Shown here: one piece after another, positions 115 to 62,975 of the stretch
How positions within the stretch are numbered: the first letter of the stretch is position 1
Layout: every line of letters starts with the position of its first letter
NCBI GenBank assembly: GCA_050260475.1
Contig: JBLNCG010000019.1
Coordinates: 10,166 to 74,165, forward strand
DNA length: 64,000 nt
Source: Bacillota bacterium
GTDB lineage: Bacteria > Bacillota > UBA4882 > JBLNCG01
Direction: 5' to 3'
Program-made: the position numbers and the translations under genes
Notes under the pieces: model-generated
The model's input: only the letters and a program-made list of their open reading frames with translations
Database searches by the model: none
What the model was told of the DNA's origin: nothing

Positions 115-226
115 GCAATTTGCGTTGTAACTATATTTTACGTACCACTAAATATCGATAGCCCAATGGTAGCCATACACTATGTTTAGTGGCAAGGCCT
201 GGCATTAAGGTAACAACGCAATTGCC
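115..226 (+). repeat. Intergenic palindromic repeat, copy E1 (full length, about 112 nt)
   Basis: Matches the consensus: outer inverted repeat GCAATTTGCGTTGTAAC / GTAACAACGCAATTGCC, inner inverted repeat CCACTAAATAT / ATGTTTAGTGG, and central core ATCGATAGCCCAATGGTAGCCATACAC. Confidence 0.9.
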
Positions 227-257
227 TTCAGTAAATCACGATAGGAGGTAATCCCGA

Positions 258-953
258 ATGTCGACCAACATTCCCTGCCCCGGAGGGACATTATATACCA
301 TCCGGCCCGGTGATGCCTATTATTTGCTGGCCCCGCGCTTCAATACCACCATCGCAGCATTGATTGCCGCCAATCCCGGGGTAGACCCCGCCAATCTGCA
401 AATCGGGCAACAGATCTGCATTCCTGTGGCCCCAGTCCCCGGACCTTGTCCGGGAGGCTTTTCCCATACCATCGTCACCGGAGATACTTTTTTCAGCCTT
501 GCCAGACGTTATGGCATCGCAGTGGCCGCCTTGACAGCCGCCAATCCGGGCGTGGATCCGGACCGGCTGCAGATCGGCCAGCAAATTTGCATCCCTGCGC
601 CGGCGCCCCGGCCCCAGCCCTGCCCAGGCTCTTTATACAGCATCAAACCGGGGGATACTTTCATTGGTTTGGCCAGGCGCTTCGGCTATACCTTGGATGC
701 CATTTTGGCGGCAAATCCCGGCGTAGATCCCAACAGGCTGCAAATCGGGCAGCAAATCTGCCTGCCGCCATCCCCCGGCGGAGGACCTTTTCCATGTTTC
801 GGGGGATCCATCTATATTGTCCAGCCCGGAGATACGCTTTTTGCAATCGCGCGAAAATTCGGCCTCAGCCTTGCAGCCCTGCTGCAGGCGAATCCCGAAA
901 TTGCCGATCCCGACCGCATCGTCGCGGGCCAAGCGGTCTGCATTCCCAGGTAA
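258..953 (+). CDS. LysM-repeat protein with four LysM domains separated by Pro/Cys-rich linkers; SafA-like, possibly spore-coat associated
   Basis: Four repeats of the form YxIxPGDTxxxLAxRFxxxxxALxxANPGVDPxxLQIGQQICIP. RBS AGGAGG lies 7 nt upstream of the ATG. Confidence 0.85.
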   Translation: MSTNIPCPGGTLYTIRPGDAYYLLAPRFNTTIAALIAANPGVDPANLQIGQQICIPVAPVPGPCPGGFSHTIVTGDTFFSLARRYGIAVAALTAANPGVDPDRLQIGQQICIPAPAPRPQPCPGSLYSIKPGDTFIGLARRFGYTLDAILAANPGVDPNRLQIGQQICLPPSPGGGPFPCFGGSIYIVQPGDTLFAIARKFGLSLAALLQANPEIADPDRIVAGQAVCIPR

Positions 954-1026
954 CCTTGTTTCCATTCGTCACATATTTCGGTGTTCCTAAGTAATATATA
1001 CGAAAAGATCGAAAGGAGCTGGTCAT

Positions 1027-1587
1027 ATGGATGAATTTTTCAGACATGAGAGCGAGGGGGAATGCGGCGAGGATGCGGATGGCGCCGGCGAAAACGGGAA
1101 ATGCGAAGTAATGCCTATTCCATTTTGCTGTTATGTAACGGTTCCGGAGGGTTTTGAACCCGCACGGGAATGCGAGAGGCCGGTGATCCTCGCGGCGATT
1201 GTCGGCAATTGCACCTTCCTGTGCGACTCCAAAAAGGAAATTGAAGACGTGAAGATCGGTACCGAATGCGGCAACCTTTACTGCGATATCGAAGTCCCCA
1301 AAACAGACCTGGTGGGTTCCATCAAAGTGCAAAGCGCTTTGAAAATAAAGGAGATCTGCGGCGAACAATACACCTTCGTATGCTGTTGCGACTGCGTCTG
1401 CATTAATGAGACCTTGTGCTACAGATGTCCGGGCTGCGAACCCCCTTCCGTGGAAGACGTGGCTATAGAAATCGATCCGCGTTCGCTGGATGCCTGTGCG
1501 GTCGATAATTGCAATTGCAAAACCCTTTACAAGATCACCGGGAAATTAAAAGTCGACTTCTCGTGCCCGCGCTGCAAGCAGTCTTGA
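1027..1587 (+). CDS. Cysteine-rich hypothetical protein (about 12% Cys; motifs CCYV, VCCCDCVC, CPGC, CPRC)
   Basis: ORF with RBS AAAGGAG 8 nt upstream. It is co-directional with the LysM gene and separated from it by 73 nt. Cys clustering is typical of spore coat or exosporium proteins, but I recognise no family. Confidence 0.6.
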   Translation: MDEFFRHESEGECGEDADGAGENGKCEVMPIPFCCYVTVPEGFEPARECERPVILAAIVGNCTFLCDSKKEIEDVKIGTECGNLYCDIEVPKTDLVGSIKVQSALKIKEICGEQYTFVCCCDCVCINETLCYRCPGCEPPSVEDVAIEIDPRSLDACAVDNCNCKTLYKITGKLKVDFSCPRCKQS

Positions 1588-1628
1588 TCCGGGCCGGCAT
1601 CCGCGAGTTAAGCGGCGGAGGTGAAACC

Positions 1629-1865
1629 ATGGTTGTAATGATTTTAATCGTTTTTTGCTTGATTCTGGCGGCCTTGACCAGCTTGATCCATCCCGTCATA
1701 TACCGTAAATTGCTGAATTTCCTTTCCGCGCCCTGCGGCAAACGCCCGGATCCCGGACCGTATAACCATAAGACCGTAAAGAAAAAATACACCGGGTTAA
1801 ACAGGCCGGCGGCGGTTTATACCAAAGTTTCCAGGATAAACAGAGATAAACGACAGGATAGATGA
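1629..1865 (+). CDS. Small membrane protein (78 aa, one N-terminal transmembrane helix)
   Basis: The internal ATG at 1629 follows GGAGGTGA by 5 nt. The hydrophobic stretch is VVMILIVFCLILAALTSLI. The longer ORF from 1509 overlaps the upstream gene and is less likely. Confidence 0.45.
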   Translation: MVVMILIVFCLILAALTSLIHPVIYRKLLNFLSAPCGKRPDPGPYNHKTVKKKYTGLNRPAAVYTKVSRINRDKRQDR

Positions 1866-1871
1866 AATTAA

Positions 1872-1893
1872 GACGGCATTAAGCCGTTTTTTT
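1872..1893 (+). terminator. Intrinsic terminator (GACGGC-ATTAA-GCCGT followed by T6)
   Basis: Hairpin plus T-run 7 nt after the stop codon of the small membrane ORF. Confidence 0.6.
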
Positions 1894-2309
1894 GTTGGCG
1901 GGGATCGCCGTCAACAATTGCCCTGAAGCAATGTGAAAAGCGAAGCAAAGGAAGGGTGATGAAATGGAAACCGGATTCCGGCGCGTACGGAAAAAAGAAG
2001 CAAATCCATCCTCAGGTCATGAATTGAAAGCTTGTCAAATGCCTTGAATAAAATGATATCCCCGATTTCCCCGTGCTGACGGCTCCTGTCATATCCCCAC
2101 CTAATCACTATATAAAATTCGTATGGAACAGTATCCGACTTTAAACTTTCCCATAATATAACACGGAAAATAAAACTATCCGGTATTTTTCAATGATTTA
2201 TGCGGAAATATATCGACTATTTTCCTGTTTTTGCGGAGATTTTGTATCGCATCCGCGATAAAGAAAACCCGGTTGGATGTATTTATTTAATCACCGGCCT
2301 ATTATATAA

Positions 2310-2425
2310 GGCAATCGCGTTGTTACCTCAATGCCAGGTCTTGCCATTAATATAGTGTATGGCTATCATTAGGCTATCGATATTTAGCGGCAAGGCGTAA
2401 AATCATCATAAAAACGCAAATTGCT
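2310..2425 (-). repeat. Intergenic palindromic repeat, copy E2 (full length, inverted relative to E1)
   Basis: Its reverse complement matches the consensus end to end (GAGCAATTTGCGTTTTTATGATGATTTTACG ... GGTAACAACGCGATTGCC). Confidence 0.9.
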
Positions 2426-2466
2426 CTATATGACGATTTGCCGGAAGGTTGAAAGGAAGATGATAT

Positions 2467-6384: not shown

Positions 6385-7640
6385 ATTCCGGCGAAATGAA
6401 ACTCAAACTCTTGAACCGGACCCTTAAAAGGTGTGAAAAATCCGAATTCTACCGGGGCAGGCCGGGGGGGAAATCCTTGAAATCTTTGGATGATTTGAAA
6501 GGCATCCCGCTGACCACCAAGGATGATCTGCGCAACAACTCCCCGTACGGTTTGATCTGCGCGCCCCGCCGGGCGCTCGTGCAATACCACGAATCCTTCG
6601 GCACCACGGGAGTCCCGGTTTCCATATGGCTGACCAGGGAGGATCTGCGCCGTAACGCCAAAATAATATCATACTGGGGCGTGGGTTTCAACGCGGACGA
6701 TACAGTCTTAATCCGCTATCCTTATGCCATTTCAGGCGTCGCCCACATGGTGCACGCCGGAGCGCAACGTAAAAAGGCCTGCGTTATTCCGGCCAGCTCC
6801 CGTACCGCAGTATGCCCTTTTCCCCGTATCGTAAGCCTAATGCGCAAGCTGGGCGTAACCGTCCTGGCCGGATTGCCCCTGCAGGCGCTGCTCATCGCGG
6901 AAACCGCCGAGTTGATGGGTTACCGGCCCGGAAAGGATTTTCCGATGCTGCGCGCCCTCTGTACTGCCGGTGAACCGCTTTCGCCCTGGCGCCGGAAATT
7001 GCTGGAGGATATCTGGGGTGTCCCGGTGTTCGACAATTACGGCCTGACGGAAACCGGACCGCTTGCTCTGGATTGTGAATTCGGACACTTGCATCCCCTG
7101 GAGGATGATTATATCTTTGAAATCCTGCGCGATGACTTTCAAACACCGTCGGCGGAAAACGAATGCGGATATCTTGTCATCACCACATTATGCAGGGAGG
7201 GAACCCCCTTGCTGAGATATCTCACCGGAGACCTAGTAAGGATGGTCGAACAGGATTGCCCCTGCGGATCCCGCCTGACTATGGAAGTACACGGCCGTTC
7301 CGAGCAGCGCATATCCGCGGGTCCGGCAATCCTTGACATATGGGACCTCGATGAAATCGTTTCGTTTCTTCCATATCGCCGCTTCTGGATAGCGGCGCCC
7401 GCTCAAGACGGAATCAAAATAGTCCTTGAAGAAGAGCCGGAATCCGGCCCTCTGCATTATAAAAAAGCTGATTCGTTGGAAACCCGTTTCGGCGTCCGGG
7501 TGCACCTAGAAATCGTACCGAAAGGAACGCTTTTTAACCGCAGCAAACTCCTGGAAACGGCCATAATAGGTAAACCTGCTTATATCGTATCCCCGGAAGA
7601 GCTGGCCGAAAAAAAGCAACCGGCTGCATCCGTCCTCTAA
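6381..7640 (+). CDS. PaaK / F390-synthetase-family adenylate-forming enzyme (paralogue 2)
   Basis: 419 aa with motif SFGTTGVP and the context KGIPLTTKDDLR typical of the PaaK N-domain. It overlaps the amidohydrolase stop (ATGA). Confidence 0.7.
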   Translation: MNSGEMKLKLLNRTLKRCEKSEFYRGRPGGKSLKSLDDLKGIPLTTKDDLRNNSPYGLICAPRRALVQYHESFGTTGVPVSIWLTREDLRRNAKIISYWGVGFNADDTVLIRYPYAISGVAHMVHAGAQRKKACVIPASSRTAVCPFPRIVSLMRKLGVTVLAGLPLQALLIAETAELMGYRPGKDFPMLRALCTAGEPLSPWRRKLLEDIWGVPVFDNYGLTETGPLALDCEFGHLHPLEDDYIFEILRDDFQTPSAENECGYLVITTLCREGTPLLRYLTGDLVRMVEQDCPCGSRLTMEVHGRSEQRISAGPAILDIWDLDEIVSFLPYRRFWIAAPAQDGIKIVLEEEPESGPLHYKKADSLETRFGVRVHLEIVPKGTLFNRSKLLETAIIGKPAYIVSPEELAEKKQPAASVL

Positions 7641-7646
7641 ATTAAA

Positions 7647-7757
7647 GCAATTTGCGTTGTTATGATAATTTTACGTCCTGCCAAAATATCGATAGCCTAA
7701 TGGTAACCGTACACTTATTTAGCGGCAAGACCTTGAATTAAAATAAACGCAATTGCC
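7647..7757 (+). repeat. Intergenic palindromic repeat, copy E3 (full length)
   Basis: GCAATTTGCGTTGTTATGATAATTTTACGTCCTGCCAAAATATCGATAGCCTAATGGTAACCGTACAC ... AATAAACGCAATTGCC. Confidence 0.9.
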
Positions 7758-7797
7758 TCAATTAAGAAACATCCGCGACATCCGGAAAGGAGCATGT

Positions 7798-8907
7798 TTG
7801 TTGAATAAGAGCGTTATAAAAGAGATATGGTTTGACGGTCGGGGCCTCCCCCTCCATTCTCAAACCTGGAACCTGATTTACAACTCCCCCATCGCCAAGA
7901 TCATAACTACCCCAGATCAGCGCAAGAGTAACCGTTTTCCGTTTAAAACGGAATTCATGATCGAACCGGGGACTTCCGGAGATTTGGAAGGATTCACCGA
8001 AGGAGATACCGTAATTTCGGATCAGCCGGATCTTCTTTCTGCGGCACAAAGAAAAAGATTGAAAACATGCCTTATTCTGTCCGTAAAATCCGGCCAATCA
8101 CTGGATCAACTATGCAAGGAAGCTTCGTTATATGATTATGTTGCGTTGGATTTCGATTTGCCCACCAATATCCCTCTGGAGCTGTTTATAGCACGTTTAC
8201 AGGACGGCGATACGGCCATCCTTCGCATGACAAATACGGTAGAAGACGTAAAAGTCGCATTCGGAGTCCTGGAAAAAGGAAGCGACGGCGTAATCTTCGG
8301 CAGCGCGGAACTGGCGCAAATCGAGGCTTTATGTGCCTTCATGGTTGAAAATGAGAATTCGAAAATCGATTTGCGCCCGCTTATCGTTACGGAAATAAGA
8401 TATGCCGGTATGGGCATGCGCGCATGCATCGACACCACCGGCTTGATGACACAAGAAGAGGGAATGCTGGTCGGTTCCACCTCCAACGGCGGCATCTTTG
8501 TCTGCTCGGAAACACATTTCCTCCCTTATATGAACCTTCGCCCGTTCAGAGTAAATGCCGGCGCCGTGCATTCTTATGTCTGGATGCCGGGGGACAACGC
8601 GGAATACATCACCGATCTTTCGGCGGGCAGCAGGATTTTATGCGTGAATACAGGAAGCGGCTTGCGGGAGCTTACCGTGGGAAGGGTGAAGATCGAAAAA
8701 AGGCCCCTGCTCATGATAAAAGGCAGTTCCAATGGGGCGGAAATCAATGTCATTATTCAGGATGACTGGCACATCCGTTTGATGGGAGCGGACGGGAAGC
8801 CCAAAAACGCCACATTGATCCGCCCCGGGGATGAACTGCTTGCATACCCCTGCAAACCGGGACGACATGTAGGCATTAAAGTCCATGAGACAATCATCGA
8901 GAAATAA
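7798..8907 (+). CDS. 3-dehydroquinate synthase II, archaeal-type (AroB')
   Basis: N-terminus KEIWFDGRG and overall similarity to archaeal DHQ synthase II. I take the start as TTG 7798 (AAAGGAG 5 nt upstream). The ORF-track start at 7753 lies inside the repeat and is unlikely. Confidence 0.7.
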   Translation: MLNKSVIKEIWFDGRGLPLHSQTWNLIYNSPIAKIITTPDQRKSNRFPFKTEFMIEPGTSGDLEGFTEGDTVISDQPDLLSAAQRKRLKTCLILSVKSGQSLDQLCKEASLYDYVALDFDLPTNIPLELFIARLQDGDTAILRMTNTVEDVKVAFGVLEKGSDGVIFGSAELAQIEALCAFMVENENSKIDLRPLIVTEIRYAGMGMRACIDTTGLMTQEEGMLVGSTSNGGIFVCSETHFLPYMNLRPFRVNAGAVHSYVWMPGDNAEYITDLSAGSRILCVNTGSGLRELTVGRVKIEKRPLLMIKGSSNGAEINVIIQDDWHIRLMGADGKPKNATLIRPGDELLAYPCKPGRHVGIKVHETIIEK

Positions 8908-23301: not shown

Positions 23302-23342
23302 CCGCAACATCCTTTTCAAAGTAATCTCCAACCCCGTTAGTA

Positions 23343-23377
23343 ACAAGACCCAGCATTAAGGCAACAACACAATTGCC
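23343..23377 (+). repeat. Truncated remnant of the palindromic repeat (right terminus only), copy E4
   Basis: ACAAGACCCAGCATTAAGGCAACAACACAATTGCC matches the consensus right arm GCAAGACCTTGAATTAAGGTAACAACGCAATTGCC. Confidence 0.7.
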
Positions 23378-23439
23378 TTTGGTAAGCTATTCTATCTTCT
23401 GTCTTCTGTATTTATCTCCCGTGCTCTGTATTCTTTTCT

Positions 23440-24609: not shown

Positions 24610-24669
24610 AAGGTTACTTTTCCCCATTCATGCGGAAAATCCTGTTCGCCTCCGCCGATCCATAAACGG

Positions 24670-24786
24670 GCAATTTGCGTTGCTATGATAATTCAACGTC
24701 ATGCCACCAAATATCGATAGCCTACATGGCAGCCATACGCTATATTTAACGGCACGACCTTGAATTAAGGTAACAACGCAATTACC
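24670..24786 (+). repeat. Intergenic palindromic repeat, copy E5 (full length, diverged termini)
   Basis: GCAATTTGCGTTGCTATGATAATTCAACGTCATGCCACCAAATATCGATAGCCTACATGGCAGCCATACGC ... GGTAACAACGCAATTACC. Confidence 0.9.
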
Positions 24787-24881
24787 CATAATAAAAACGC
24801 CCGGCAGATTTGCCCGGCGCTGTTTCCGGATAAATATATGTATTGCCCATCATCTTCCGACGGCGGCGGCGCATTCAAACG

Positions 24882-31943: not shown

Positions 31944-32727
31944 CCTCCCCGGGGGGCAACATCATGGCGATCGCACCGAAAATCCCCTGCTGAATCACAA
32001 AAATCCTTCTCAGCCGGAGCAGTTCCAGCATCGCCAAGAAATAAGTGATCACGCCTTCCTTGGTCAGAGGCTGATCCATCATTTCGTGAAAATACAACTT
32101 CGCCCTTTTGGTGATCTTATCCATAATCTCCTTCATGCGCTCCCGGATTGACTTTCCTTTCTTGGGGATCAGCACATGCATCATATTGACCTGATTCAGG
32201 CTTTCTAAAACATTTAAAAACGCCTGGAGAAGATCGGGTAACGCCACACCCGTCAATGGGGAAGGAGCGTTGCCCGGCTCCGTATCCCAAAAAATCCCGC
32301 CGGTCCGGAAGTAGAGGTTCTGCTGTTCCGCTTCCCGGCTTTTTAGCATCATGGATAAATCCTTATAAAGTTTATATTCCAGCAGTTTACGAACCAGTTC
32401 CTGGCGCGGATCCTCCTGCTCCTGTTCCCCTTCAGCGGATTCCGCCGCTTCCGGTACGAGCATTTTAGCCTTTATCTGCATAAGAGTGGCGGCCATCACC
32501 AGGAATTCGCCGGCCTGTTCCACATTGAGCGAGTCCATATTCTGCAAATGAAGCAGATATTCTTCGGTAATCCTGGCTATGGGGATATCCAGGATATCGA
32601 TCTCGTGTTTATCGATGAGATGCAGGAGCAAATCAAAGGGACCGGTGAAAATGTCCAGATGGATCTGGTAATCCAATGGCTCTTTAATAATTATACTTAT
32701 CTCTGCATCCCTTTCTCCTAAGAGCAA
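31903..32727 (-). CDS. scpA: Segregation and condensation protein A
   Basis: FTGPFDLLLHLIDKHEIDILDIPIARITEEYL is typical of ScpA. The start is ambiguous because the TTG at 32727 lies inside repeat E6. Confidence 0.8.
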   Translation of the reverse strand: MLLGERDAEISIIIKEPLDYQIHLDIFTGPFDLLLHLIDKHEIDILDIPIARITEEYLLHLQNMDSLNVEQAGEFLVMAATLMQIKAKMLVPEAAESAEGEQEQEDPRQELVRKLLEYKLYKDLSMMLKSREAEQQNLYFRTGGIFWDTEPGNAPSPLTGVALPDLLQAFLNVLESLNQVNMMHVLIPKKGKSIRERMKEIMDKITKRAKLYFHEMMDQPLTKEGVITYFLAMLELLRLRRIFVIQQGIFGAIAMMLPPGEVDKRESDSGPGDN

Positions 32728-32837
32728 ATTTGCGTTGTTATGATGATTTTACGTCTTGCCACTAAATATCGATAGCCTAATGGCAGCTACACCATATTTA
32801 GTGGCAAACCTTGAATGAAGGTAACAACGCAATTGCC
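32724..32837 (+). repeat. Intergenic palindromic repeat, copy E6 (full length)
   Basis: GCAAATTTGCGTTGTTATGATGATTTTACGTCTTGCCACTAAATATCGATAGCCTAATGGCAGCTACACC ... GGTAACAACGCAATTGCC. Confidence 0.9.
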
Positions 32838-32850
32838 TTCTGAAATTAAA

Positions 32851-35075: not shown

Positions 35076-35099
35076 ATTTCTCATCGCCGTTTATTTTTA

Positions 35100-35216
35100 G
35101 GGTAATTGCGTTGTTGCCTTAATTCAAGGTCTTGCCACTAAATATAGTATATGGCTGCCATTAGGCTATCGATATTTAGCGGAAGACGTAAAATTATCAT
35201 AACAATGCAAATTGCT
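35100..35216 (-). repeat. Intergenic palindromic repeat, copy E7 (full length, inverted)
   Basis: Its reverse complement matches the consensus: GAGCAATTTGCATTGTTATGATAATTTTACGTCTTCCGCTAAATATCGATAGCCTAATGGCAGCCATATAC ... GGCAACAACGCAATTACC. Confidence 0.9.
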
Positions 35217-35239
35217 CTTTTAAAAATACTCGCCCCCGG

Positions 35240-49090: not shown

Positions 49091-49130
49091 CTTTAAAACC
49101 TCGTTTGTTTTTTTATTTCAGCCAGAAAGA

Positions 49131-49304
49131 GCAATTTGCGTTGTAACTATATCCTGATTCCGTGACATCCTTTGACGACCAGGCAAAATCACGGGAGCTT
49201 GCCTATAATGGGAAAAACGAATCAAAACTCGCAATTGCCCGGAGCAGTGGGAATAAATTTAGAATATTTTATCACATTAACGCTCATCTGGCAAGGCAAC
49301 GCAA
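49131..49304 (+). repeat. Chimeric or nested repeat copy E8: canonical termini (GCAATTTGCGTTGTAACTATAT ... CGCAATTGCC, 49131-49239) with an unrelated 65-nt interior, then a partial inverted terminus (GGCAAGGCAACGCAAATTTC, 49285-49304)
   Basis: The termini are conserved while the interior (TTGACG ... GCCTATAATGGG) differs from every other copy. Confidence 0.7.
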
Positions 49305-52796: not shown

Positions 52797-53153
52797 GGTA
52801 TCAACTCCTTTTCTTACTGATGCAAATTTGAATACAGGAGACAGGAGACAGAAGTCGGAATATATTAGAGCAATCTGCTTTATTTAAGAACTCCGGAACA
52901 AAAAAAATAAAAAACCGCCCCAAAGGGACGGTTTGTCTTCCGCGGTACCACCCAATTTGCCCGGCCCATACGGGGCCGGCCACTTTTCTCCGGTAACGGC
53001 GGACACCGGCCGCACCTACTTGCGGTTCGGGCGGCTGCTCCAGGATGATCTTCGGCTGAACCCAAGGCGCCGGCTTTCACCTTCCCCGGCTCTCTTCAAG
53101 CCTTCGCAAATCAGCTTACTCTTCCTATCAATGCCTTTGTAAGAGGTTTAATT
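52797..53153 (-). promoter_or_regulatory. T-box riboswitch leader of ileS
   Basis: Minus-strand sense contains AAUUGGGUGGUACCGCGG (plus 52941-52959). A terminator CCGUCCC/GGGGCGG followed by UUUUUUAUUUUUUU lies at plus 52901-52934. Stem-I has the AGAGAG motif and the candidate specifier region is GAUCAUC. Confidence 0.8.
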
Positions 53154-53190: not shown

Positions 53191-53268
53191 AGGCGGAAAG
53201 AGTTTTCTGCAACAGGGAGGAAAAACGCAAGACGCAGAAGAATTTATCAAGGTAATGCTCTTCGATAA

Positions 53269-53384
53269 GCAATTTGCGTTGTTATGACAATTTTACGTCT
53301 TGCCGCTAAATATCGATAGCCTAATGGTAGCCATACACTATATTTAGCGGCAAGACCTTGAATTAAGGTAACAACACAATTGCC
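53269..53384 (+). repeat. Intergenic palindromic repeat, copy E9 (full length)
   Basis: GCAATTTGCGTTGTTATGACAATTTTACGTCTTGCCGCTAAATATCGATAGCCTAATGGTAGCCATACAC ... GGTAACAACACAATTGCC. Confidence 0.9.
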
Positions 53385-53416
53385 TCCCGATAGAAAACTA
53401 AAACAAGGAGAAACCC

Positions 53417-54595
53417 ATGGAAGACAATCAAGTGGCAATATATCTTGATTTTGAGAATCTGGCCATCTCCGCCGAGGAAGTGTATCCTTCCAAGGACAGG
53501 CCGCTGTCCATCGAGCCCGTGGTGGACTATGCCACCACCAAAGGAAACGTCTGCATAAAAAAGGCTTACGCGGACTGGTCCAACGAGCTTTTTTCCCAGT
53601 ACCAGAACATCCTGATGGAACACGGTTTTGAACTGGTGCATCTTCCCGCCACCAATCAGCAGGGCAAAAACGGTTCCGATGTCCGTCTGGCCGTGGATGT
53701 CATGGAAAACCTGGAACTGTTCCAGACCATCAGCACCGTAATCATCGGCTCCGGGGACACGGACTTCGTGCCCCTGATCCAGCGCGTCCGCGCCCGCGGG
53801 ATCCAGGTAATCAGCATCGGATTTGACCACAGCGTGGGCAACCTGGTGAAAATCAACAGCGTGGAATTCAAGTCCCTGGAAGAACTGCTGGGCAAACCGG
53901 AAGAGGAGTCGCTTTCCTCCGAACTTGTCGGGGAGGTGGATATTTCATACGGCCGGGAGCTTTTGATCCGCTATATCAGAAACCGAAACAACGACGAGCC
54001 GGTGCTCCTCGCCACGCTGAAGCAGGACCTGCTGCGGCTGGATCCGTCCTTTTCCGAAAAGAAACTGGGTTTTTCCTCCTTCAAAAAATTCATTAAGTCC
54101 TTCACGGGAGATCTGGTCAGCCAGATAAATTCCACGGATAAAGAGGGTTTGCTGCTGGTGCATTTGAATGATGCGGAAATCCCCCAGAACAAGCGGACGG
54201 ATCTCAAGGAGGAAGCCCGCTCATTCCTTGCCAAAAACATCCGCTTTCAAAAAAATCCCGCCAAGCGCTTGGCCATCTCCAAGCTGCTCCTCGACGAGTA
54301 CAAGGAAAACCGCGAGATGACCATGAGCGAAATGATCGATTTCACCGGCGATAAAATTAAAGGCTTCACCAAATCCGAGATCCGGAAATTCATCAACCTG
54401 CTTTTTTCCGGCAAGGCCTTCGAGCAGGTAAAAAAGGGCCAGTGGCGCCCCCTGCTGTTCAGGCCGATCAAACTCAAGGAAACCATGAACAGCCCGGAAA
54501 ACTTGGAACGGCTATACATGAACCGGGTGGTGGAAATCCTAAAAAACCGCTACTCCGCGCTTACCGAAGAGGAGGTGGACGCTTTAATAAAATAA
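53417..54595 (+). CDS. NYN-domain (LabA/PIN-like) nuclease-fold protein with a C-terminal OST-HTH/LOTUS-like region
   Basis: N-terminus VAIYLDFENL ... GSGDTDFVPLIQRVRARG is typical of NYN. RBS AAGGAG. Confidence 0.65.
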   Translation: MEDNQVAIYLDFENLAISAEEVYPSKDRPLSIEPVVDYATTKGNVCIKKAYADWSNELFSQYQNILMEHGFELVHLPATNQQGKNGSDVRLAVDVMENLELFQTISTVIIGSGDTDFVPLIQRVRARGIQVISIGFDHSVGNLVKINSVEFKSLEELLGKPEEESLSSELVGEVDISYGRELLIRYIRNRNNDEPVLLATLKQDLLRLDPSFSEKKLGFSSFKKFIKSFTGDLVSQINSTDKEGLLLVHLNDAEIPQNKRTDLKEEARSFLAKNIRFQKNPAKRLAISKLLLDEYKENREMTMSEMIDFTGDKIKGFTKSEIRKFINLLFSGKAFEQVKKGQWRPLLFRPIKLKETMNSPENLERLYMNRVVEILKNRYSALTEEEVDALIK

Positions 54596-55818
54596 ACAAG
54601 TTCTTTCCACTCCGGCAGCGGCGAAAGAACGCGGGGCAAAATGCCGTGCAGATACGCGATTAAAACGCCGTAATTTACCACGGGCACCCCTTCTTCCTTT
54701 GCTTTGGTTATGCGCCGCAAGATTTCCCTTCTGTTCAGCATGCATCCGCCGCAGTGCACCACCAGTTTGTATCTTCCCAAATCAGCGGGAAAGCCCGTAC
54801 CGCTGCACCATTCGAATACCGGCTCACCGCCTGCCTTCTGCCGCAGCCAGAGGGGGATCTTGACCGTGCCGATGTCGCCGGGCTGGCGATGGTGGGTGCA
54901 GGCTTCGGCGATTAATACCCTATCCCCGGCTTCAAGTCTTTCCACTGCCCGGACTCCTTTCACCAATTCACTGAGATCTCCTTTTTGCCTGGCCTGCAGA
55001 ATGGAAAAGGAAGTCAACGGAATATCCTCCGGCGCCGCCGCGGCGACTGCGGCAAATGCCTGGGAATCCGTAACCACTAGGGCAGGCTCTTTCCCAAGAT
55101 TACCCAAGACCTCGCGCAGCGTATTCTCTTTCGTTACAACCACCGCCGCGTCATGGTCCAGGCACTCGCGGATAACCTGCTGCTGGGGTAAAATAAGCCT
55201 TCCCTTAGGAGCAGCCTTGTCTATGGGTGTTACCAAAACCGCCAGATCCCCCGGCCGAATCAATCCGCACATCAATCCCGGATTTTGTTCGCCGCGGGGG
55301 GCGTTATCGATCAACGCCTCTTTTAAGGCATCCATGCCCTTCCCGGAGACCGCGGAAATTTCCAACAGTTTTAATCCGAGCCTGTTTTCCCACTCCCTGC
55401 GTGAATCCGCGGAATATCCTGCGGCATCCGTTTTGTTGACGGCGCCGACCGCCGCGATGCCCTTTTTACGAATCTGCGCCAGGAGATCCGTTTCATATCC
55501 GGTTACGCCTTCCTGTCCGTCGATGAGCAGGACGGCGAGATCCGTTCTTTCCAAAATCTCAAGAGCGCGCCTAACCCGCATCTCCCCCAGCAGACCGGCA
55601 TCATCAAGCCCCGCCGTATCGATAAGCACCACCGGGCCCAGAGGCAATAGCTCCATGGTTTTAAAAACAGGGTCCGTGGTGGTGCCCGCCACTTCCGATA
55701 CAAGCGATACCGGCTGCCCGGCAAGGGCGTTCAACAGGCTCGATTTGCCGGCATTGCGCCTACCGAAAACGGCGATATGGATGCGGGCGGAAATCGGAGT
55801 TTCATTTAAGCTGTTCAT
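54550..55818 (-). CDS. hydF: [FeFe]-hydrogenase maturation GTPase
   Basis: GTP-binding FGRRNAGKSSLLNAL ... DTAG. HydF length and C-terminal Cys motifs. Confidence 0.8.
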   Translation of the reverse strand: MNSLNETPISARIHIAVFGRRNAGKSSLLNALAGQPVSLVSEVAGTTTDPVFKTMELLPLGPVVLIDTAGLDDAGLLGEMRVRRALEILERTDLAVLLIDGQEGVTGYETDLLAQIRKKGIAAVGAVNKTDAAGYSADSRREWENRLGLKLLEISAVSGKGMDALKEALIDNAPRGEQNPGLMCGLIRPGDLAVLVTPIDKAAPKGRLILPQQQVIRECLDHDAAVVVTKENTLREVLGNLGKEPALVVTDSQAFAAVAAAAPEDIPLTSFSILQARQKGDLSELVKGVRAVERLEAGDRVLIAEACTHHRQPGDIGTVKIPLWLRQKAGGEPVFEWCSGTGFPADLGRYKLVVHCGGCMLNRREILRRITKAKEEGVPVVNYGVLIAYLHGILPRVLSPLPEWKELVYFIKASTSSSVSAE

Positions 55819-55895
55819 TTCTCCCCCTTATGTTTTCATTTTACCATGTTTTCATCTTTTCGTTTCCCGATTTGTATCCCTCGCTGGCTATCAGA

Positions 55896-56013
55896 GCAAT
55901 TTGCGTTGTTAATAATGATCACGTCTTGCACTAACTAAATATCGATAGCCTAATGGCAGCCATACATTATATTTAGTGGCAAGACCTTGAATCAAGGTAA
56001 CAACGCAATTGCC
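55896..56013 (+). repeat. Intergenic palindromic repeat, copy E10 (full length), between hydG and hydF
   Basis: GCAATTTGCGTTGTTAATAATGATCACGTCTTGCACTAACTAAATATCGATAGCCTAATGGCAGCCATACAT ... GGTAACAACGCAATTGCC. Confidence 0.9.
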
Positions 56014-56016
56014 TTC

Positions 56017-57396
56017 TCAATAATATAAATCCCTGTTTCCGCCCTTAATCTGCATGAGTTTATCCGAAACCTCCCCGCGGATGACGGGATCCAGGCAGGA
56101 TAAATGTCGTTCTATCGCCGTCCTGCCCTTTTCCTCCAAATCCGCATCAGCGTAATCCTGCAAGTATTCCTGAAAGGTCAGAATGGCGTTGGGGGCGCAC
56201 ACTTTTTTTATTTCGCCGGATTTCGCCAATGCCATAAACCTGTCCCCGGTGCGGCCCTGCCGGTAGCATGCCGTGCAAAAGCTGGGCAGGTAACCGTCAT
56301 TCAAGAGCTCCAGAATAATTTCAGAAATCCGGCGGTGATCGCCCACTTCAAATTGCGGCGTGGATGTTTGCGCCCCGTATCCCCCTACCGTGGTACGGGA
56401 GCCGGCGCTGATCTGTGAAACTCCGAGCGAAATAACCTCCCTTCTGAAGGACGGTTCTTCGCGGGTGGAAAGGATAATCCCGGTGTAAGGAAGGGCCAGC
56501 CGCAGCAGGGCCACGATGCGGCGAAATTCCTCATCCGATACCAGCGGGAAGCCGTCCAGCCGGACCCCCGGCGCAGGCCTCAAACGCGGCACGGAAACCG
56601 TATGCGGTCCGACCCCGAACTTTTCCTCAAGATGGGCTGCGTGAATAATAAGCGACACCACTTCAAATTTATAGTCATACAGCCCGAAAAGGACTCCGGC
56701 TCCCACATCATCGATACCCGCCTGCATAGCCCGGTCGAATGCGGACAACTGCCGGTCGTAATTCCGTTTGGGCCCGGCGGGATGGACTTTCTCATAAGTG
56801 GGCCGGTGGTAAGTCTCCTGGAAAAGAATATAAGTACCGATCCCCGCCGTTTTTAACCGCCGGTAATCATCGACGGAGGCGGCGGCAATATTAACGTTGA
56901 TTCTGCGGATATTTCCCCGCGCTTTGCGGACGCGATAAATGGTGTCCATGGATTCCAGAATATAAGACAGCGGCGCATGGGCGGGATCCTCACCGGCCTC
57001 CAGCGCCAGCCTTTTATGACCCATATCCTCAAGGATTTCAACTTCACGGGCGATTTCCGCCTGGGAAAGCCTGCGGCGCCCCGTCCCGTTCCCGCACCGG
57101 TAGCCGCAGTAAATACAAGAATTGACGCAATAATCCGAAATATACAGAGGGGCAAAAATAACGATCCGTTTTCCATAAATCTCTTCTTTGATATGACGGG
57201 CCGCCCGAAAAACCTCCGCCCAGACCTCCCCGTCATCGGTTTGCAGGAAAACCGCCGCTTCATCCGGGGATAAACCGCGGCATGAACGCGCTTTGGCCAG
57301 CAGTCCTTTATAGCCGCCGTTTTTACGGCCGGATTCGATTGCCGCGTGAACGGACTCTTCCATAAGCCAGCTTGATCCAGATTCCTCCGAAATCAT
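56017..57396 (-). CDS. hydG: [FeFe]-hydrogenase maturation radical-SAM enzyme
   Basis: Radical SAM CxxxCxxC (CVNSCIYCGYR). ThiH-like length of 459 aa. Confidence 0.8.
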   Translation of the reverse strand: MISEESGSSWLMEESVHAAIESGRKNGGYKGLLAKARSCRGLSPDEAAVFLQTDDGEVWAEVFRAARHIKEEIYGKRIVIFAPLYISDYCVNSCIYCGYRCGNGTGRRRLSQAEIAREVEILEDMGHKRLALEAGEDPAHAPLSYILESMDTIYRVRKARGNIRRINVNIAAASVDDYRRLKTAGIGTYILFQETYHRPTYEKVHPAGPKRNYDRQLSAFDRAMQAGIDDVGAGVLFGLYDYKFEVVSLIIHAAHLEEKFGVGPHTVSVPRLRPAPGVRLDGFPLVSDEEFRRIVALLRLALPYTGIILSTREEPSFRREVISLGVSQISAGSRTTVGGYGAQTSTPQFEVGDHRRISEIILELLNDGYLPSFCTACYRQGRTGDRFMALAKSGEIKKVCAPNAILTFQEYLQDYADADLEEKGRTAIERHLSCLDPVIRGEVSDKLMQIKGGNRDLYY

Positions 57397-58367
57397 TTTT
57401 TCCGCCTTCTTTCATAAAAAATGGAATGTCCAGGGCCTTTACCCATGACAAGGCCGCATTCATCCAGCAGTTTCACTAAACTGCGATACTCGTTGCAAGG
57501 ATCGTAAGGCTTCGCCTTGCCCGGATAGATCGTATAATCCTCCCGGTATTCCGCTGGCGTAAGATTGGGCATCACAACGTCGGCCCCGTATTGCAACCCC
57601 AGCAGCCTGCCCTGCGGATGCAACGTGGCCAGGGCTGTGGTGGACGGCATGTGCGCGTAAGGAAGCATAAGCCTGACACGCGCGATCATGCGCAAGGTCT
57701 CTGACAACTCCCCGCCTTGCTCCCTTCCGAAAGGGGTGTCCGGATGAGGGATGAAAGGTCCGATTCCCACCATATCCGGTCTCATCTCCCGCATCAATTT
57801 CAAATCCGCCCGGCAACCGCGATCCTCCGCCCCCGGCAGGCCCGTCATGAAACCCATGCCCACCTGGTACCCCATTTGCCTGAGTAGGATAAGATCCGCT
57901 AGGCGGTCCGCGAGCCGCCGGCCGGGGCGTAAATATCCATACAACTCCGGATCGGCGGTCTCATGACGCAAAAGATAGCGGTCCGCCCCCGCATCTTTCC
58001 ACAGCTTATACTCCTCCGCTTCCCTTTCACCAAGTGAGAGAGTAACCGCCAGCCCCATTCTTTTTATCCCCCGGATCACCGGGGCCAGCATTTCCGCGGA
58101 ACAGCCGGGATCCTCCCCGGACTGCAGAACAACTGTGCCATAACCCAATTTTTTAGCCAGACGCGCGCAGCTTAAGATTTCCTCCGGTTTCATCCGATAG
58201 CGCCGCACTTTTTCATTGTCCCTGCGCAGGCCGCAATACAGGCAATTGCACCGGCAATGGTTGGATATCTCCACAAGGCCGCGGAAATGAACCGCATTGC
58301 CCAAATGCTTCCGGCGGACCTGATCCGCCCGGGCCATTAATTGATTGTCAACCGGGCAAGTAATCAT
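57393..58367 (-). CDS. hydE: [FeFe]-hydrogenase maturation radical-SAM enzyme
   Basis: Radical SAM CRCNCLYCGLRR. BioB-like. Overlaps the hydG start. Confidence 0.75.
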   Translation of the reverse strand: MITCPVDNQLMARADQVRRKHLGNAVHFRGLVEISNHCRCNCLYCGLRRDNEKVRRYRMKPEEILSCARLAKKLGYGTVVLQSGEDPGCSAEMLAPVIRGIKRMGLAVTLSLGEREAEEYKLWKDAGADRYLLRHETADPELYGYLRPGRRLADRLADLILLRQMGYQVGMGFMTGLPGAEDRGCRADLKLMREMRPDMVGIGPFIPHPDTPFGREQGGELSETLRMIARVRLMLPYAHMPSTTALATLHPQGRLLGLQYGADVVMPNLTPAEYREDYTIYPGKAKPYDPCNEYRSLVKLLDECGLVMGKGPGHSIFYERRRKK

Positions 58368-59711: not shown

Positions 59712-59740
59712 TTTTCACATCTCCTTATGCCAAACTTGAT

Positions 59741-61246: not shown

Positions 61247-61291
61247 GACGGCCACCTCCACGATATGGAATACCGGATAATACGGTACAGA

Positions 61292-61394
61292 GCAATTAAC
61301 GCTGCTTATGATGTTTTATGTCTTGCCACCGAATATCCATAGCCTAATAAATATTGGGCGGCAGACCTTGAATCAAGGCAACAACGCAATTGCC
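61292..61394 (+). repeat. Degenerate copy of the palindromic repeat (E11)
   Basis: GCAATTAACGCTGCTTATGATGTTTTATGTCTTGCCACCGAATATCCATAGCCTAATAAATATTGGGCGGCAGACCTTGAATCAAGGCAACAACGCAATTGCC. Confidence 0.75.
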
Positions 61395-61416
61395 TTCGGT
61401 AAAAAAGATGGGGGAT

Positions 61417-62829
61417 TTATTCCCCTCTCAGCCAGGCCCGAATTTTATCCTCCACCGGATCATAGAAATCGGGGTTAATGCCGATGTATCTGCAGGCTTC
61501 GTAAATAACCGGCAGGATATTGCCGTGGATACCTACGCAGTGGTGCACGTACGGGCCGGTGACGATCTTTTCCTCGGTGCGGGGCCAGTTTTCCACTTCA
61601 ATCCACATATATGTCCCGATGGTTTTGGGGCCTTCGATGCCCCTGGCCGTACCGAGCAGGATGGAGTAATTGCCGTTATCCCCGTCGAAGCGGAGCAGGC
61701 TGATTTCCCCGCCTTTGATCTCAGCGATTACGGAACCCGGGCAATGCTCGGGGAAGGCAAAGGGCCTGCCCAACCGGGCTTTGGTTTTCGCCAGTGAAAT
61801 GGGCCAGGGGCCGCAATGCTGCAGAAGCTCTCCATGGGGATTCTCCGGATGGCGCACGGACCAGTCGGCGAAGAAGGGTGGATTCTGGCCCATGGCCGCG
61901 GCCTGGGCCATGACGGCCGTGATTGCGCCATGGATATCCGTTTCGCAAACCACCGGAATCCCTTCATCAGTAAGCAGCGAATTGGCGGCGCAGGGCATCA
62001 CGTGCAGCACTTCCTGCAAGGAACTCCAGCACTGGATGGCAACGGCGTTGCAGCCGTAAAGGGCGGCCAGACGCTTCATGGCGGTTTTCATCGCCGCCAC
62101 CCTCCGCACGAATTCTTCGGGCACGGAGACTTCCATATTGGCCTTGATGTAATCCACGGTTTTCGCAACTTCCGGATCGCTGCTTTTTTCCAACTCCAGG
62201 ACTTTATTGGTGAATTCGGACATGGTGACGGGCCTGAGCTGAATGCCGAACCTTTCCAGCAGTTCGCCCTCGTTACACATCATGGTCCAGAAATCCGCAG
62301 GCCGGGTGGAAATCTGCAGAATCCTCATCTTCCGGAATTCCTTGACCACGTTGGCCGCGGCAAGAAAATTCCTCACGCCCCTCTCGAAAACCTCGTCCTC
62401 CAGGCGGCAGTTCACTATATAAGTAAACGGCAGGTTGAACCGGCGAAACACTTTGCCCGTTGCGAACAGGCCGCATTGAGTATCGCGCAGCCGGGCGCCG
62501 TCCGGCAGCGGGGCTTCATCCCGCGGCCCCCAGAGCAGGATGGGCACTTTTAGGGCATGGGCGACCTTGCATACCACATCCTCGGTGCCGAAATTGCAGT
62601 GCGGGAAAAATACCGCGTTCACGCCGGCATCCTTGAATTTTTTTACCACCTTGGCCACGTCTTCTTCGGCGTGCAGCAAGCCTTCTTCGTTGACATCCTC
62701 CATGTCCACATAATTCACGCCGAGTTGCTGCAGTTTCTGCTGGGTCAATTTTTTGAATTTATGGGCGTCTTCCTTGCTGAAGATGAACCTCCGGGTCGGC
62801 GCCAGGCCGATCAAGACTTTGTGATCCAT
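61417..62829 (-). CDS. L-fucose / L-arabinose isomerase-family protein
   Basis: 470 aa with the FucI/AraA-like fold. It sits in a sugar operon with an FGGY kinase. Confidence 0.55.
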   Translation of the reverse strand: MDHKVLIGLAPTRRFIFSKEDAHKFKKLTQQKLQQLGVNYVDMEDVNEEGLLHAEEDVAKVVKKFKDAGVNAVFFPHCNFGTEDVVCKVAHALKVPILLWGPRDEAPLPDGARLRDTQCGLFATGKVFRRFNLPFTYIVNCRLEDEVFERGVRNFLAAANVVKEFRKMRILQISTRPADFWTMMCNEGELLERFGIQLRPVTMSEFTNKVLELEKSSDPEVAKTVDYIKANMEVSVPEEFVRRVAAMKTAMKRLAALYGCNAVAIQCWSSLQEVLHVMPCAANSLLTDEGIPVVCETDIHGAITAVMAQAAAMGQNPPFFADWSVRHPENPHGELLQHCGPWPISLAKTKARLGRPFAFPEHCPGSVIAEIKGGEISLLRFDGDNGNYSILLGTARGIEGPKTIGTYMWIEVENWPRTEEKIVTGPYVHHCVGIHGNILPVIYEACRYIGINPDFYDPVEDKIRAWLRGE

Positions 62830-62888
62830 GTGTTTATCCCCCTTTTTGCTTGTTCCAACTGGAAAAAGTTAATCAACTCAAATTAAGG

Positions 62889-62975
62889 GCAATTTGCGTT
62901 GTAACTATATTTTTACGTCTTACCATTCACAACGCTTCTAAATATTGATAGCCTAATGATAGCCGCACGCCATAT
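62889..62975 (+). repeat. Truncated copy of the palindromic repeat (E12; left arm and core only)
   Basis: GCAATTTGCGTTGTAACTATATTTTTACGTCTTACCATTCACAACGCTTCTAAATATTGATAGCCTAATGATAGCCGCACGCCATATTTG. The right arm is missing. Confidence 0.75.

What the first reader, a model, noticed from the sequence alone, without database searches (positions are those of the whole stretch)
115..62975. High-density family of about 115-nt near-palindromic intergenic repeats (12 loci in 64 kb)
Twelve loci share one consensus. It has a 16-17-bp terminal inverted repeat (AGCAATTTGCGTTGTTAC / GTAACAACGCAATTGCCTT) and a perfect inner 15-bp inverted repeat (CTTGCCACTAAATAT / ATATTTAGTGGCAAG). The core GATAGCCTAATGGCAGCCATA is rich in palindromes. 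The loci are at 115, 2310, 7647, 23343, 24670, 32724, 35100, 49131, 53269, 55896, 61292 and 62889. Copies occur in both orientations and are strictly intergenic. Nine of the twelve lie within 30-80 nt of a start codon, between the likely promoter and the RBS. All copies are preceded by RAG and followed by TT(C) plus an AT-rich flank. Two copies are truncated and one (49131) keeps both termini but has a different interior, which is how non-autonomous derivatives of a transposon behave. The whole element would fold into a long hairpin of about 55 bp as RNA or a cruciform as DNA. I do not recognise it as a named family (REP, BIME, ERIC, Correia, RUP and BOX differ). The density of one per 5 kb implies hundreds of copies per genome. 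The likely functions are transcript-end stabilisation, termination, promoter or operator delivery, or small-RNA production.
Basis: seen in the sequence. Interest (0 to 1): 0.85.

Follow-up and report, generated by a model that had tools for sequence, protein, structure and literature searches.

The report
Dense hairpin-forming miniature transposon (MITE) family
The repeats are real: a roughly 118-bp non-coding mobile element (a MITE) fills the gaps between housekeeping genes of an uncultured spore-forming anaerobe. It is an ordinary kind of selfish DNA rather than a new regulatory RNA.

Summary
The window holds 8 full copies (115-122 bp), one internally deleted copy, two truncated copies and one doubtful ends-only copy of a single family.

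- The copies are 79-92% identical and A+T-rich (37% GC, against 52.7% for the window).
- They make up 2.1% of the window and about 18% of its non-coding DNA. Only 1 nt overlaps coding sequence.
- The ends are roughly 19-bp terminal inverted repeats (RRGCAATT(T)GCGTTGTTA).
- Copies are flanked by A+T-rich 5-bp direct repeats: two perfect, two 4/5. This signal is absent when the flanks of different copies are paired.
- That is the signature of a transposase-mobilised MITE. No transposase lies in the window.
- The 50-55-bp hairpin is strong (z = -7 to -10), but nothing shows it is maintained. Pairing equals the shuffled expectation, there is no covariation, and copies lie in both orientations.
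- There is no Rfam match. No copy was found in any accessible external collection. The host is a deep-branching Bacillota MAG.

I could not measure genome-wide copy number or identify the parent IS. Effects on mRNA, such as RNase III cleavage or altered stability, are inferred by analogy only.

Verdict: a new member of a known kind, of modest interest.

The parts
113..228 (+). Full copy (116 bp), subfamily with GTAACTATAT after the left inverted repeat. It ends about 30 nt upstream of the start of the LysM-protein gene (258).
   Evidence: nhmmer E = 1.2e-35; boundaries; flanks TATAG/CAGTA (1/5)
2308..2426 (-). Full copy (119 bp), inverted on the genome. It has perfect 5-bp direct repeats ATATA (2303-2307 and 2427-2431) and lies 41 nt upstream of the TPR-protein gene (2467).
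   Evidence: nhmmer E = 2.1e-37
7645..7759 (+). Full copy (115 bp) with perfect 5-bp direct repeats AATTA (7640-7644 and 7760-7764). The left repeat overlaps the stop codon of the upstream AMP-binding-enzyme gene. The copy lies 38 nt upstream of the RBS-supported start (7798) of the DHQS-II gene.
   Evidence: nhmmer E = 3.6e-32
23337..23381 (+). 45-nt fragment of the right end, in the deoB-pdp spacer.
   Evidence: nhmmer E = 7.8e-7, profile positions 78-122
24668..24788 (+). Full copy (121 bp) in the xerD-deoB spacer. Its minus-strand RNA folds at -60.8 kcal/mol.
   Evidence: nhmmer E = 6e-37
32722..32839 (+). Full copy (118 bp) between an M50-peptidase-like gene (stop 11 nt away) and scpA.
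   Evidence: nhmmer E = 1.9e-36
35099..35217 (-). Full copy (119 bp), inverted on the genome. Flanks TAAAA/AAAAA (4/5). It lies 22 nt after the stop of the upstream gene and 246 nt upstream of lysA.
   Evidence: nhmmer E = 8.4e-38
49129..49243 (+). Doubtful relative. The left 22-35 nt of the family, an unrelated interior and about 10-12 nt of the right end (CGCAATTGCC), in the cupin-hutP spacer.
   Evidence: nhmmer E = 0.017 for the left end only; alignment
53267..53386 (+). Best-preserved full copy (120 bp). Flanks TCGAT/CCGAT (4/5). It sits in the divergent spacer between the ileS T-box leader and the NYN-protein gene, whose start is 30 nt away.
   Evidence: nhmmer E = 1.2e-40
55894..56015 (+). 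Full copy (122 bp) between hydG and hydF. The hydG stop codon lies inside the 5-nt right flank. The copy lies 76 nt upstream of the hydF start.
   Evidence: nhmmer E = 4.5e-35
61290..61396 (+). Copy with an internal deletion of the apical region (107 bp). Both inverted repeats are kept.
   Evidence: nhmmer E = 9.1e-19; alignment
62887..62977 (+). Truncated copy: left arm and apical core with a 12-nt insertion, right arm missing. It ends 8 nt from the stop of the downstream-lying apiosidase-like gene.
   Evidence: nhmmer E = 1.2e-15; alignment

Best explanation

Proposed mechanism:
1. A transposase encoded elsewhere in the genome binds the roughly 19-bp terminal inverted repeats (RRGCAATT(T)GCGTTGTTA).
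2. It inserts the unit into A+T-rich sites with a 5-bp staggered cut. Repair of the cut leaves 5-bp direct repeats.
3. Insertions survive only where they damage neither a coding sequence nor the roughly 25-30 nt ribosome-binding region. The copies therefore pile up between a stop codon and the next RBS.
4. The long hairpin is a by-product of the element's palindromic build (outer and inner inverted repeats around an asymmetric 30-nt core). It decays neutrally in individual copies.
5. Where a copy is co-transcribed with its neighbours, the roughly 50-bp duplex RNA is a plausible RNase III substrate. It may change the stability of the flanking cistrons.

Shown here: the family itself, the inverted repeats, the flanking duplications, the intergenic restriction, the folding potential and the absence of covariation.
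Inferred: mobilisation in trans, the transposase type and any effect on RNA.
For: - Twelve loci match one consensus; chance expectation is below 0.1.
- Terminal inverted repeats are the best-conserved part, at 0.04-0.06 deviations per site against 0.08-0.18 in the spacers and inner stems.
- The 5-nt flanks match as direct repeats in 27 of 45 positions, against 11 of 45 as inverted repeats.
- Flank identity is 0.60, against 0.32 +/- 0.05 when flanks of different copies are paired. None of 2000 permutations reached it, and 11 of 2000 did after correcting for the grid of registers tried.
- Copies lie in both genome orientations (10 plus, 2 minus) and both orientations relative to the downstream gene (4 sense, 8 antisense).
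- Truncated, internally deleted and subfamily variants exist.
- The consensus is 37% GC in a 52.7% GC window. Copies cover 17.8% of non-coding DNA with 1 nt of coding overlap.
- All six ends of three independent short-read contigs from run SRR24035587 fall inside copies, as expected for a multicopy repeat. This also rules out an assembly artefact.
- These features match the definition of prokaryotic MITEs in PMC10969869.
Against: - No autonomous element with the same ends was found.
- No empty site in a relative could be examined, so mobility rests on the flanking duplications alone. Three of nine copies show only 1/5 matching.
- No copy was found outside the window.
- A 20-nt apical block (AAATATCGATAGCCTAATGG) is more conserved than the stems. 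A purely passive element does not require that.
Confidence: 0.8

Rival explanations
1. A domesticated regulatory module. The element, or its conserved apical block, is kept because it acts on the neighbouring genes. It could work as a structured RNA in the 5' UTR or intercistronic spacer, as a binding site for a host protein, or as a portable sporulation-type promoter.
For: - 11 of 12 copies end 27-76 nt upstream of a start codon.
- The 20-nt block AAATATCGATAGCCTAATGG is almost invariant, at about 0.02 deviations per site.
- The consensus contains AAATATC-N17-CATACACT. From my own memory this resembles the Bacillus sigma-E consensus, and the host is a spore-former.
- The hairpins fold strongly, with z = -6.9 to -9.8.
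Against: - There is no covariation, and pairing equals the shuffled expectation.
- Orientation relative to the downstream gene is mixed, 4 sense to 8 antisense.
- The sigma-E-like -10 is exact in only 3 of 9 copies and varies as much as neutral positions.
- Promoter-like and terminator-like hits are at shuffle level.
- The nearness to start codons follows from the short spacers. Removing the element leaves spacers of about 40-70 nt at 7647, 32724, 55896 and 61292, and about 130 and 260 nt at 24670 and 35100.
- There is no Rfam match.
Confidence: 0.1
2. A hairpin element moved as single-stranded DNA by a tyrosine (HUH) transposase, like REP/BIME with RAYT or the IS200/IS605-derived palindromic elements. 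It would not be a cut-and-paste inverted-repeat element.
For: - The whole unit is a hairpin, and the reverse strand folds better in all 9 copies.
- Arm mismatches are skewed towards A.C on the element strand, which read as G.U or G.T on the other strand: about 24 against 12.
Against: - Such elements insert next to a fixed tetra- or pentanucleotide and make no target duplication. Here the 5-nt flanks differ between copies and are duplicated.
- The size (118 bp) and low G+C differ from REPs, which are 20-40 nt and G+C-rich (PMC3733652 abstract).
- The mismatch skew follows the genome strand (25 against 11). It fits the replication-strand mutation bias implied by the negative GC skew.
Confidence: 0.05
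3. An immobile repeat spread by recombination or segmental duplication, or an artefact of MAG assembly.
For: No copy was found outside this one window.
Against: - The flanking genes are unrelated housekeeping genes, and nothing but the element itself is repeated.
- Copy-specific 5-bp duplications are present.
- Short-read contigs assembled independently are 100% identical to the window and enter the copies.
Confidence: 0.03

Closest known systems
Correia elements (CREE) of Neisseria
   Same: Both are units of about 100-155 bp with terminal inverted repeats. Both occur at very high density in intergenic spacers, are often co-transcribed, and fold into long hairpins. In Neisseria these hairpins are cut by RNase III (PMC10969869). 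Both families also have internally deleted variants.
   Different: Correia elements are confined to another phylum. From my own knowledge, the inverted-repeat sequence is unrelated (26 bp, TATAGTGGATTAAC...) and the duplication is TA rather than 5 bp. No IHF site or end promoters were shown here.
bcr1 and other BCR repeats of the Bacillus cereus group
   Same: Both are small (100-400 bp) dispersed non-coding repeats in Bacillota chromosomes with features of mobile elements. Both are associated with an A+T-rich 5-nt motif at the insertion site (PMC6542083).
   Different: bcr1 uses a fixed TTTAT motif and is thought to move by a site-specific mechanism. Here the 5-nt flanks differ from copy to copy. 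bcr1 is restricted to the B. cereus group. No sequence comparison was run.
ERIC/IRU, RUP and other bacterial MITEs (Chunjie, QMITE, Nezha)
   Same: They share the architecture given in the review: under 500 bp, inverted repeats of 4-30 bp, direct repeats in younger copies, A+T-rich, intergenic, and stable stem-loop transcripts (PMC10969869). The density here, one per 5.3 kb, would fall in the range of ERIC in Photorhabdus (711 copies) if it holds genome-wide.
   Different: The sequence is unrelated. The host is an uncultured deep-branching Bacillota lineage. The parent IS is unknown, so I cannot say whether it is a type I or type II MITE.
REP/BIME elements
   Same: Both are extragenic palindromes placed just after stop codons inside operons.
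   Different: REPs are 20-40 nt, G+C-rich, carry a GTAG or CGTC tag and have no target duplication (PMC3733652 abstract). This element is 118 bp, A+T-rich and flanked by duplications.

Membership tests
Prokaryotic MITE | Short (<500 bp) and non-coding | tested here: met
   Full copies are 115-122 bp, each a single hairpin-forming non-coding unit.
Prokaryotic MITE | Terminal inverted repeats of about 4-30 bp | tested here: met
   RRGCAATT(T)GCGTTGTTA at both ends, with a 1-nt indel between the arms. These are the best-conserved segments.
Prokaryotic MITE | Flanking direct repeats (target-site duplication), at least in younger copies | tested here: met
   5-bp flanks: two copies 5/5, two 4/5, two 3/5, three 1/5. 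Identity is 0.60 against 0.32 +/- 0.05 for mismatched flank pairs. Grid-corrected, 11 of 2000 permutations reached it.
Prokaryotic MITE | Multicopy, dispersed, A+T-rich and mainly intergenic | tested here: met
   12 loci in 64 kb; 37% GC against 52.7%; 1 nt of coding overlap. Short-read contigs break inside the copies. Genome-wide number not measured.
Prokaryotic MITE | A related autonomous IS or transposon with the same ends that supplies the transposase | not testable with these tools
   The window has no transposase and the rest of the MAG is not held in the collections. Inverted-repeat scans of viral contigs gave only chance hits.
Prokaryotic MITE | Presence/absence polymorphism (empty sites) in relatives | not testable with these tools
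   The nearest relatives share only 64-66% HydF identity and lack the element.
Rfam structured RNA families | Match to a curated covariance model | tested here: not met
   The only gathering-level hit in the window is the T-box leader. A permissive scan of the best copy gave nothing below E = 1.
Structured cis-regulatory RNA (generic) | Base pairs maintained by compensatory change | tested here: not met
   89.4% paired against 88.8 +/- 0.4% in shuffles (72 of 500 as high). Covariation score 0.074 against 0.079. With only 9 sequences the power is low.
REP/BIME (RAYT-associated) | 20-40-nt G+C-rich palindrome with a GTAG/CGTC tag and no target duplication | tested here: not met
   118 bp, 37% GC, flanked by duplications. 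A RAYT gene was not searched for genome-wide.
IS200/IS605-derived palindromic elements | Insertion 3' of a fixed short target, with no inverted-repeat ends and no duplication | tested here: not met
   The flanks vary between copies and are duplicated.
Integron attC sites | Imperfect palindrome with RYYYAAC / GTTRRRY cores after each cassette ORF, in a one-directional array next to an integron integrase | tested here: not met
   The neighbours are housekeeping genes on both strands. The nearby recombinase scores as the XerD equivalog (397.8 bits, cut-off 329.6) and below the integron-integrase cut-off (163.5 against 265). I checked the core motifs by eye only.
Correia / ERIC / RUP / BOX / bcr1 | Sequence similarity to the family consensus | not tested
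   No reference sequences are held in the tools. From memory the inverted repeats differ, and the host ranges of these families do not include this lineage.

The most novel reading that the evidence does not exclude
The element is more than passive DNA. Its nearly invariant 20-nt apical block (AAATATCGATAGCCTAATGG, containing the palindrome TATCGATA) would be a binding site or RNA loop under selection in each copy. In that case a mobile element has distributed one regulatory input across dozens to hundreds of operon spacers of a spore-forming anaerobe. The input could be a sporulation-sigma-type promoter or a protein- or RNase-recruiting hairpin.
Probability: 0.1. Interest if true: 0.55.

Novelty: new member of a known kind. 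Interest (0 to 1): 0.3.

Why it matters
If the local density (one copy per 5.3 kb, about 18% of non-coding DNA) holds genome-wide, this uncultured Bacillota lineage would rank among the more MITE-laden bacteria known. That has three consequences:
- Short-read assemblies of it shatter at every copy, as the Logan contigs show.
- Many operons carry a roughly 50-bp duplex in their intercistronic RNA.
- The family could serve as a strain-typing marker and as a natural test of how RNase III handles such inserts in Firmicutes.

It does not open a new class of element or mechanism.

Tried and rejected
1. A genome-contig scan with a 16-nt core pattern. The pattern was too short for 596 Gb. This was my error.
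2. A metagenome-contig scan with a 22-nt degenerate core. It returned 4 chance hits that match only the pattern.
3. Viral-contig scans with both inverted repeats and the core. The inverted-repeat scans returned 34 loci with only pattern-length matches, and the core scan returned none. One apparent inverted pair 2.4 kb apart lies inside a 1256-aa phage ORF.
4. BLASTN of the consensus against plasmids and phages found nothing.
5. The closest HydF relatives (64-66% identity) were fetched as contigs. They carry no element, and their hydF-flanking genes (DUF362/ferredoxin-type, DHDPS) differ from the NYN-domain gene next to hydF here.
6. Test for RNA-level selection tied to the direction of transcription. 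G.U against A.C mismatches on the transcribed strand were 19 against 17, so there is no signal. The skew follows the genome strand instead.
7. Sigma-70-type promoter and intrinsic-terminator scans were at shuffle level. One TTGATT-N18-TATAAT match in the 55896 copy is not conserved.
8. The sigma-E-like motif in the apical region is not conserved beyond the neutral level.
9. Avoidance of ATCGAT/TATCGATA, as a hint of a restriction-modification link: ATCGAT occurs 36 times against 36.8 expected.
10. The integron attC reading and the XerD neighbour: it is housekeeping XerD.
11. An exact-protein look-up of IleS failed, probably because of start-codon choice.


Full report
**Observation.** I built a profile from the eight full-length copies and ran it over the window. 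It recovers:
- eight full copies (E = 1e-32 to 1e-40);
- a copy with its apical part deleted (61290-61397);
- a 5' 91-nt copy carrying a 12-nt insertion (62887-62977);
- a 45-nt right-end fragment (23337-23381);
- a weak ends-only relative (49129-49243; left end E = 0.017).

A general repeat search finds no other sizeable family in the window.

**Host and context.** The only Rfam gathering hit is a T-box leader in front of an isoleucyl-tRNA synthetase gene, and there are no tRNA genes. Pfam annotation shows a housekeeping chromosome segment of a spore-forming anaerobic Firmicute. It includes ScpA/ScpB, XerD, SpoIIM, SpoVAE, LysA, HydE/G/F, IspH-S1, Cmk, TyrA and HutP. No transposase is present. 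The HydF protein is identical to one from an NCBI record named 'MAG: Bacillota bacterium' on a 140,273-bp contig. The next relatives are only 64-66% identical, so the lineage has no close sequenced relatives in the collections.

**Anatomy.**
- The 121-nt consensus is GAGCAATTTGCGTTGTTATGATAATTTTACGTCTTGCCACTAAATATCGATAGCCTAATGGTAGCCATACACTATATTTAGTGGCAAGACCTTGAATTAAGGTAACAACGCAATTGCCTTC.
- It has outer inverted repeats of about 19 bp that differ by one T, and a partly complementary spacer on each arm (about 13 nt on the left, about 11 on the right).
- Inside these lies a 16-bp inner inverted repeat around an asymmetric apical core of about 30 nt. The core is what gives the element an orientation.
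- Copies are 79-92% identical (mean 85%). The consensus is 37% GC, against 52.7% for the window and 44.5% for other non-coding DNA.
- The copies occupy 2.1% of the window and 17.8% of its non-coding DNA, and overlap coding sequence by 1 nt.
- Three loci (115, 49131, 62889) share a variant left subterminal sequence (GTAACTATAT). This indicates at least two source lineages.

**Evidence for transposition.**
- I set the element boundaries at RRGCAAT...ATTGCCYY. This register (5-bp repeat, 2 extra nt at each end) was among the best of the grid I scanned (0.60 identity), and a 4-bp register scored slightly higher (0.64).
- With these boundaries, the five bases on each side are direct repeats: ATATA/ATATA (2310), AATTA/AATTA (7647), TAAAA/AAAAA (35100) and TCGAT/CCGAT (53269). 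Two copies match 3/5 and three match 1/5.
- Overall identity is 27 of 45. The same flanks compared as inverted repeats give 11 of 45. Flanks paired between different copies give 0.32 +/- 0.05.
- None of 2000 permutations reached the observed value. After correcting for the grid of registers and lengths tried, 11 of 2000 did.
- The flanks are 77% A+T.
- Inverted repeats, a variable duplicated target, both orientations, and deleted or truncated derivatives are the defining features of prokaryotic MITEs as reviewed in PMC10969869.

**Independent support for multicopy status.** The only DNA on record for three window proteins is from short-read contigs of run SRR24035587. These map at 100% identity to 199-2378, 53356-55963 and 61363-62918. 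All six contig ends fall inside element copies. The repeat is therefore present in the raw data and breaks a de Bruijn assembly, as a dispersed repeat does.

**Position relative to genes.**
- Using start codons with a Shine-Dalgarno motif, 11 of 12 copies end about 27-76 nt upstream of a start codon.
- Six of them also begin 0-22 nt after the stop codon of a co-directional upstream gene.
- At 7647 and 55896 the stop codon lies in or touches the 5-nt flank.
- Subtracting the element leaves spacers of roughly 40-70 nt at 7647, 32724, 55896 and 61292, and roughly 130 and 260 nt at 24670 and 35100.
- The simplest reading is that insertions are tolerated anywhere that spares the coding sequence and the ribosome-binding region. 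Nothing shows a position 'between promoter and RBS'.
- Orientation relative to the downstream gene is 4 sense to 8 antisense.

**The hairpin.** Individual copies fold at -26 to -61 kcal/mol, with z-scores of -6.9 to -9.8. The consensus folds at -51 kcal/mol on the element strand and -55 on the reverse strand.

Pairing is not maintained by selection, though:
- On the nine-copy alignment, 89.4% of cells form standard pairs, against 88.8 +/- 0.4% when 3' partners are shuffled among copies (72 of 500 shuffles as high).
- Three pairs change on both sides, against 2.2 expected.
- The covariation score is 0.074, against 0.079 in shuffles.
- At the one clearly polymorphic pair, all four combinations occur: A-U 3, G-U 2, A.C 3, G-C 1.

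The hairpin is thus inherited from the palindromic master copy and is eroding independently in each arm. Nine sequences give low power, but nothing points the other way.

**Strand asymmetry.** The reverse strand folds better in every copy, and arm mismatches are skewed towards A.C on the element strand (about 24 against 12). The skew does not follow the direction of transcription (19 against 17). It follows the genome strand (25 against 11), in a window with uniformly negative GC skew. I therefore attribute it to replication-strand mutation bias. The test is inconclusive.

**Conservation profile.** The inverted repeats (0.04-0.06 deviations per site) and a 20-nt apical block, AAATATCGATAGCCTAATGG (about 0.02), are the most conserved parts. 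The spacers and inner stems run at 0.08-0.18. Conserved ends fit a requirement for transposase binding in the source lineages.

The apical block is unexplained. It may be a host-factor or transposase contact, as central sites are in other MITEs. It is the main reason I keep a 10% rival of domesticated function. From memory, the consensus also contains a sigma-E-like AAATATC-N17-CATACACT. The -10-like part is exact in only three of nine copies and varies at the neutral rate. Generic promoter and terminator scans are at shuffle level.

**Search for relatives and a parent.**
- There is no Rfam family.
- There is no BLASTN match in plasmids or phages.
- One metagenome scan and three viral scans gave only chance matches.
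- The contigs of the nearest HydF relatives lack the element.
- My genome-contig scan used too short a pattern and was wasted.

Genome-wide copy number, the autonomous partner and empty sites therefore remain untested.

**Mechanism and comparison.**
- Most likely (0.8), a transposase encoded elsewhere recognises the roughly 19-bp ends and inserts the unit with a 5-bp stagger into A+T-rich DNA.
- Selection then confines the survivors to spacers.
- Co-transcribed copies form duplex RNA of about 50 bp that RNase III could cut, as shown for Correia elements in Neisseria (PMC10969869).
- The element works like Correia, ERIC, RUP and the Bacillus cereus bcr1 repeat (PMC6542083). It is not a member of any of them by host range or by what I recall of their sequences.
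- It fails the tests for REP/BIME, IS200/IS605-type elements, attC sites and Rfam RNAs.

**Verdict.** This is a real and well-described repeat family. It is a new member of a known kind (a MITE) in an uncultured Bacillota lineage, at notably high local density. Interest is 0.3.

Noticed in passing
window 52921-53140 (-), upstream of 49653-52796 (-): A T-box leader (Rfam RF00230, 123.8 bits) sits in front of a 1047-aa class I tRNA synthetase with a DUF5915 C-terminal domain, a long-form IleS type. A sigma-70-like promoter (TTGACA-N18-TACAAT with TG) lies at 53189-53160.
   Followed up: partly
window 199-2378, 53356-55963, 61363-62918 (loci L106, L062, L105): Short-read (Logan, SRR24035587) contigs for three window genes are 100% identical to the window. 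All six of their ends stop inside element copies, so the repeat fragments short-read assemblies of this organism.
   Followed up: yes
window 24668-24788, minus strand: In this copy all six private arm changes are transitions that leave G.U pairs on the minus strand (-60.8 kcal/mol, against -41.9 on the plus strand). The minus strand is the strand of the flanking xerD and deoB genes. Across all copies, though, the skew tracks the genome strand rather than transcription.
   Followed up: partly
element consensus positions about 41-75, e.g. window 53306-53340: The apical region reads AAATATC-N17-CATACACT, which resembles the Bacillus sigma-E (and CATAnnnTA sigma-K) promoter consensus as I recall it. 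The -10-like part is exact in only 3 of 9 copies. The adjacent 20-nt block AAATATCGATAGCCTAATGG is almost invariant, for unknown reasons.
   Followed up: partly
window 7798-8907 (+) and 8919-9692 (+): A 3-dehydroquinate synthase II (archaeal type) sits next to a DeoC/LacD-family aldolase. This is the gene pair of the alternative (archaeal-type) entry into aromatic amino-acid synthesis. It follows two AMP-binding enzymes and an amidohydrolase.
   Followed up: no
window 40841-41302 (-) and 41299-41754 (-): Two tandem DUF3189 paralogues with overlapping stop and start. Their 5' ends share a 42-nt stretch at 86% identity (repeat D12).
   Followed up: no
window 44575-45789 (-): A single 404-aa ORF combines an N-terminal flavodoxin-like domain with a complete cytidylate kinase. 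It is either a fusion or an over-extended ORF call.
   Followed up: no
window 49129-49243 (+): This locus has the family's left end (subfamily GTAACTATAT) and about 10-12 nt of its right end, but an unrelated interior of about 75 nt. It could be a second MITE type using the same ends, or a decayed and rearranged copy.
   Followed up: partly
window 54550-58367 (-): The hydE-like, hydG and hydF maturase genes are in one direction. The element is inserted exactly at the hydG stop codon, 76 nt before hydF. The hydG-hydF spacer RNA would therefore carry the hairpin.
   Followed up: partly
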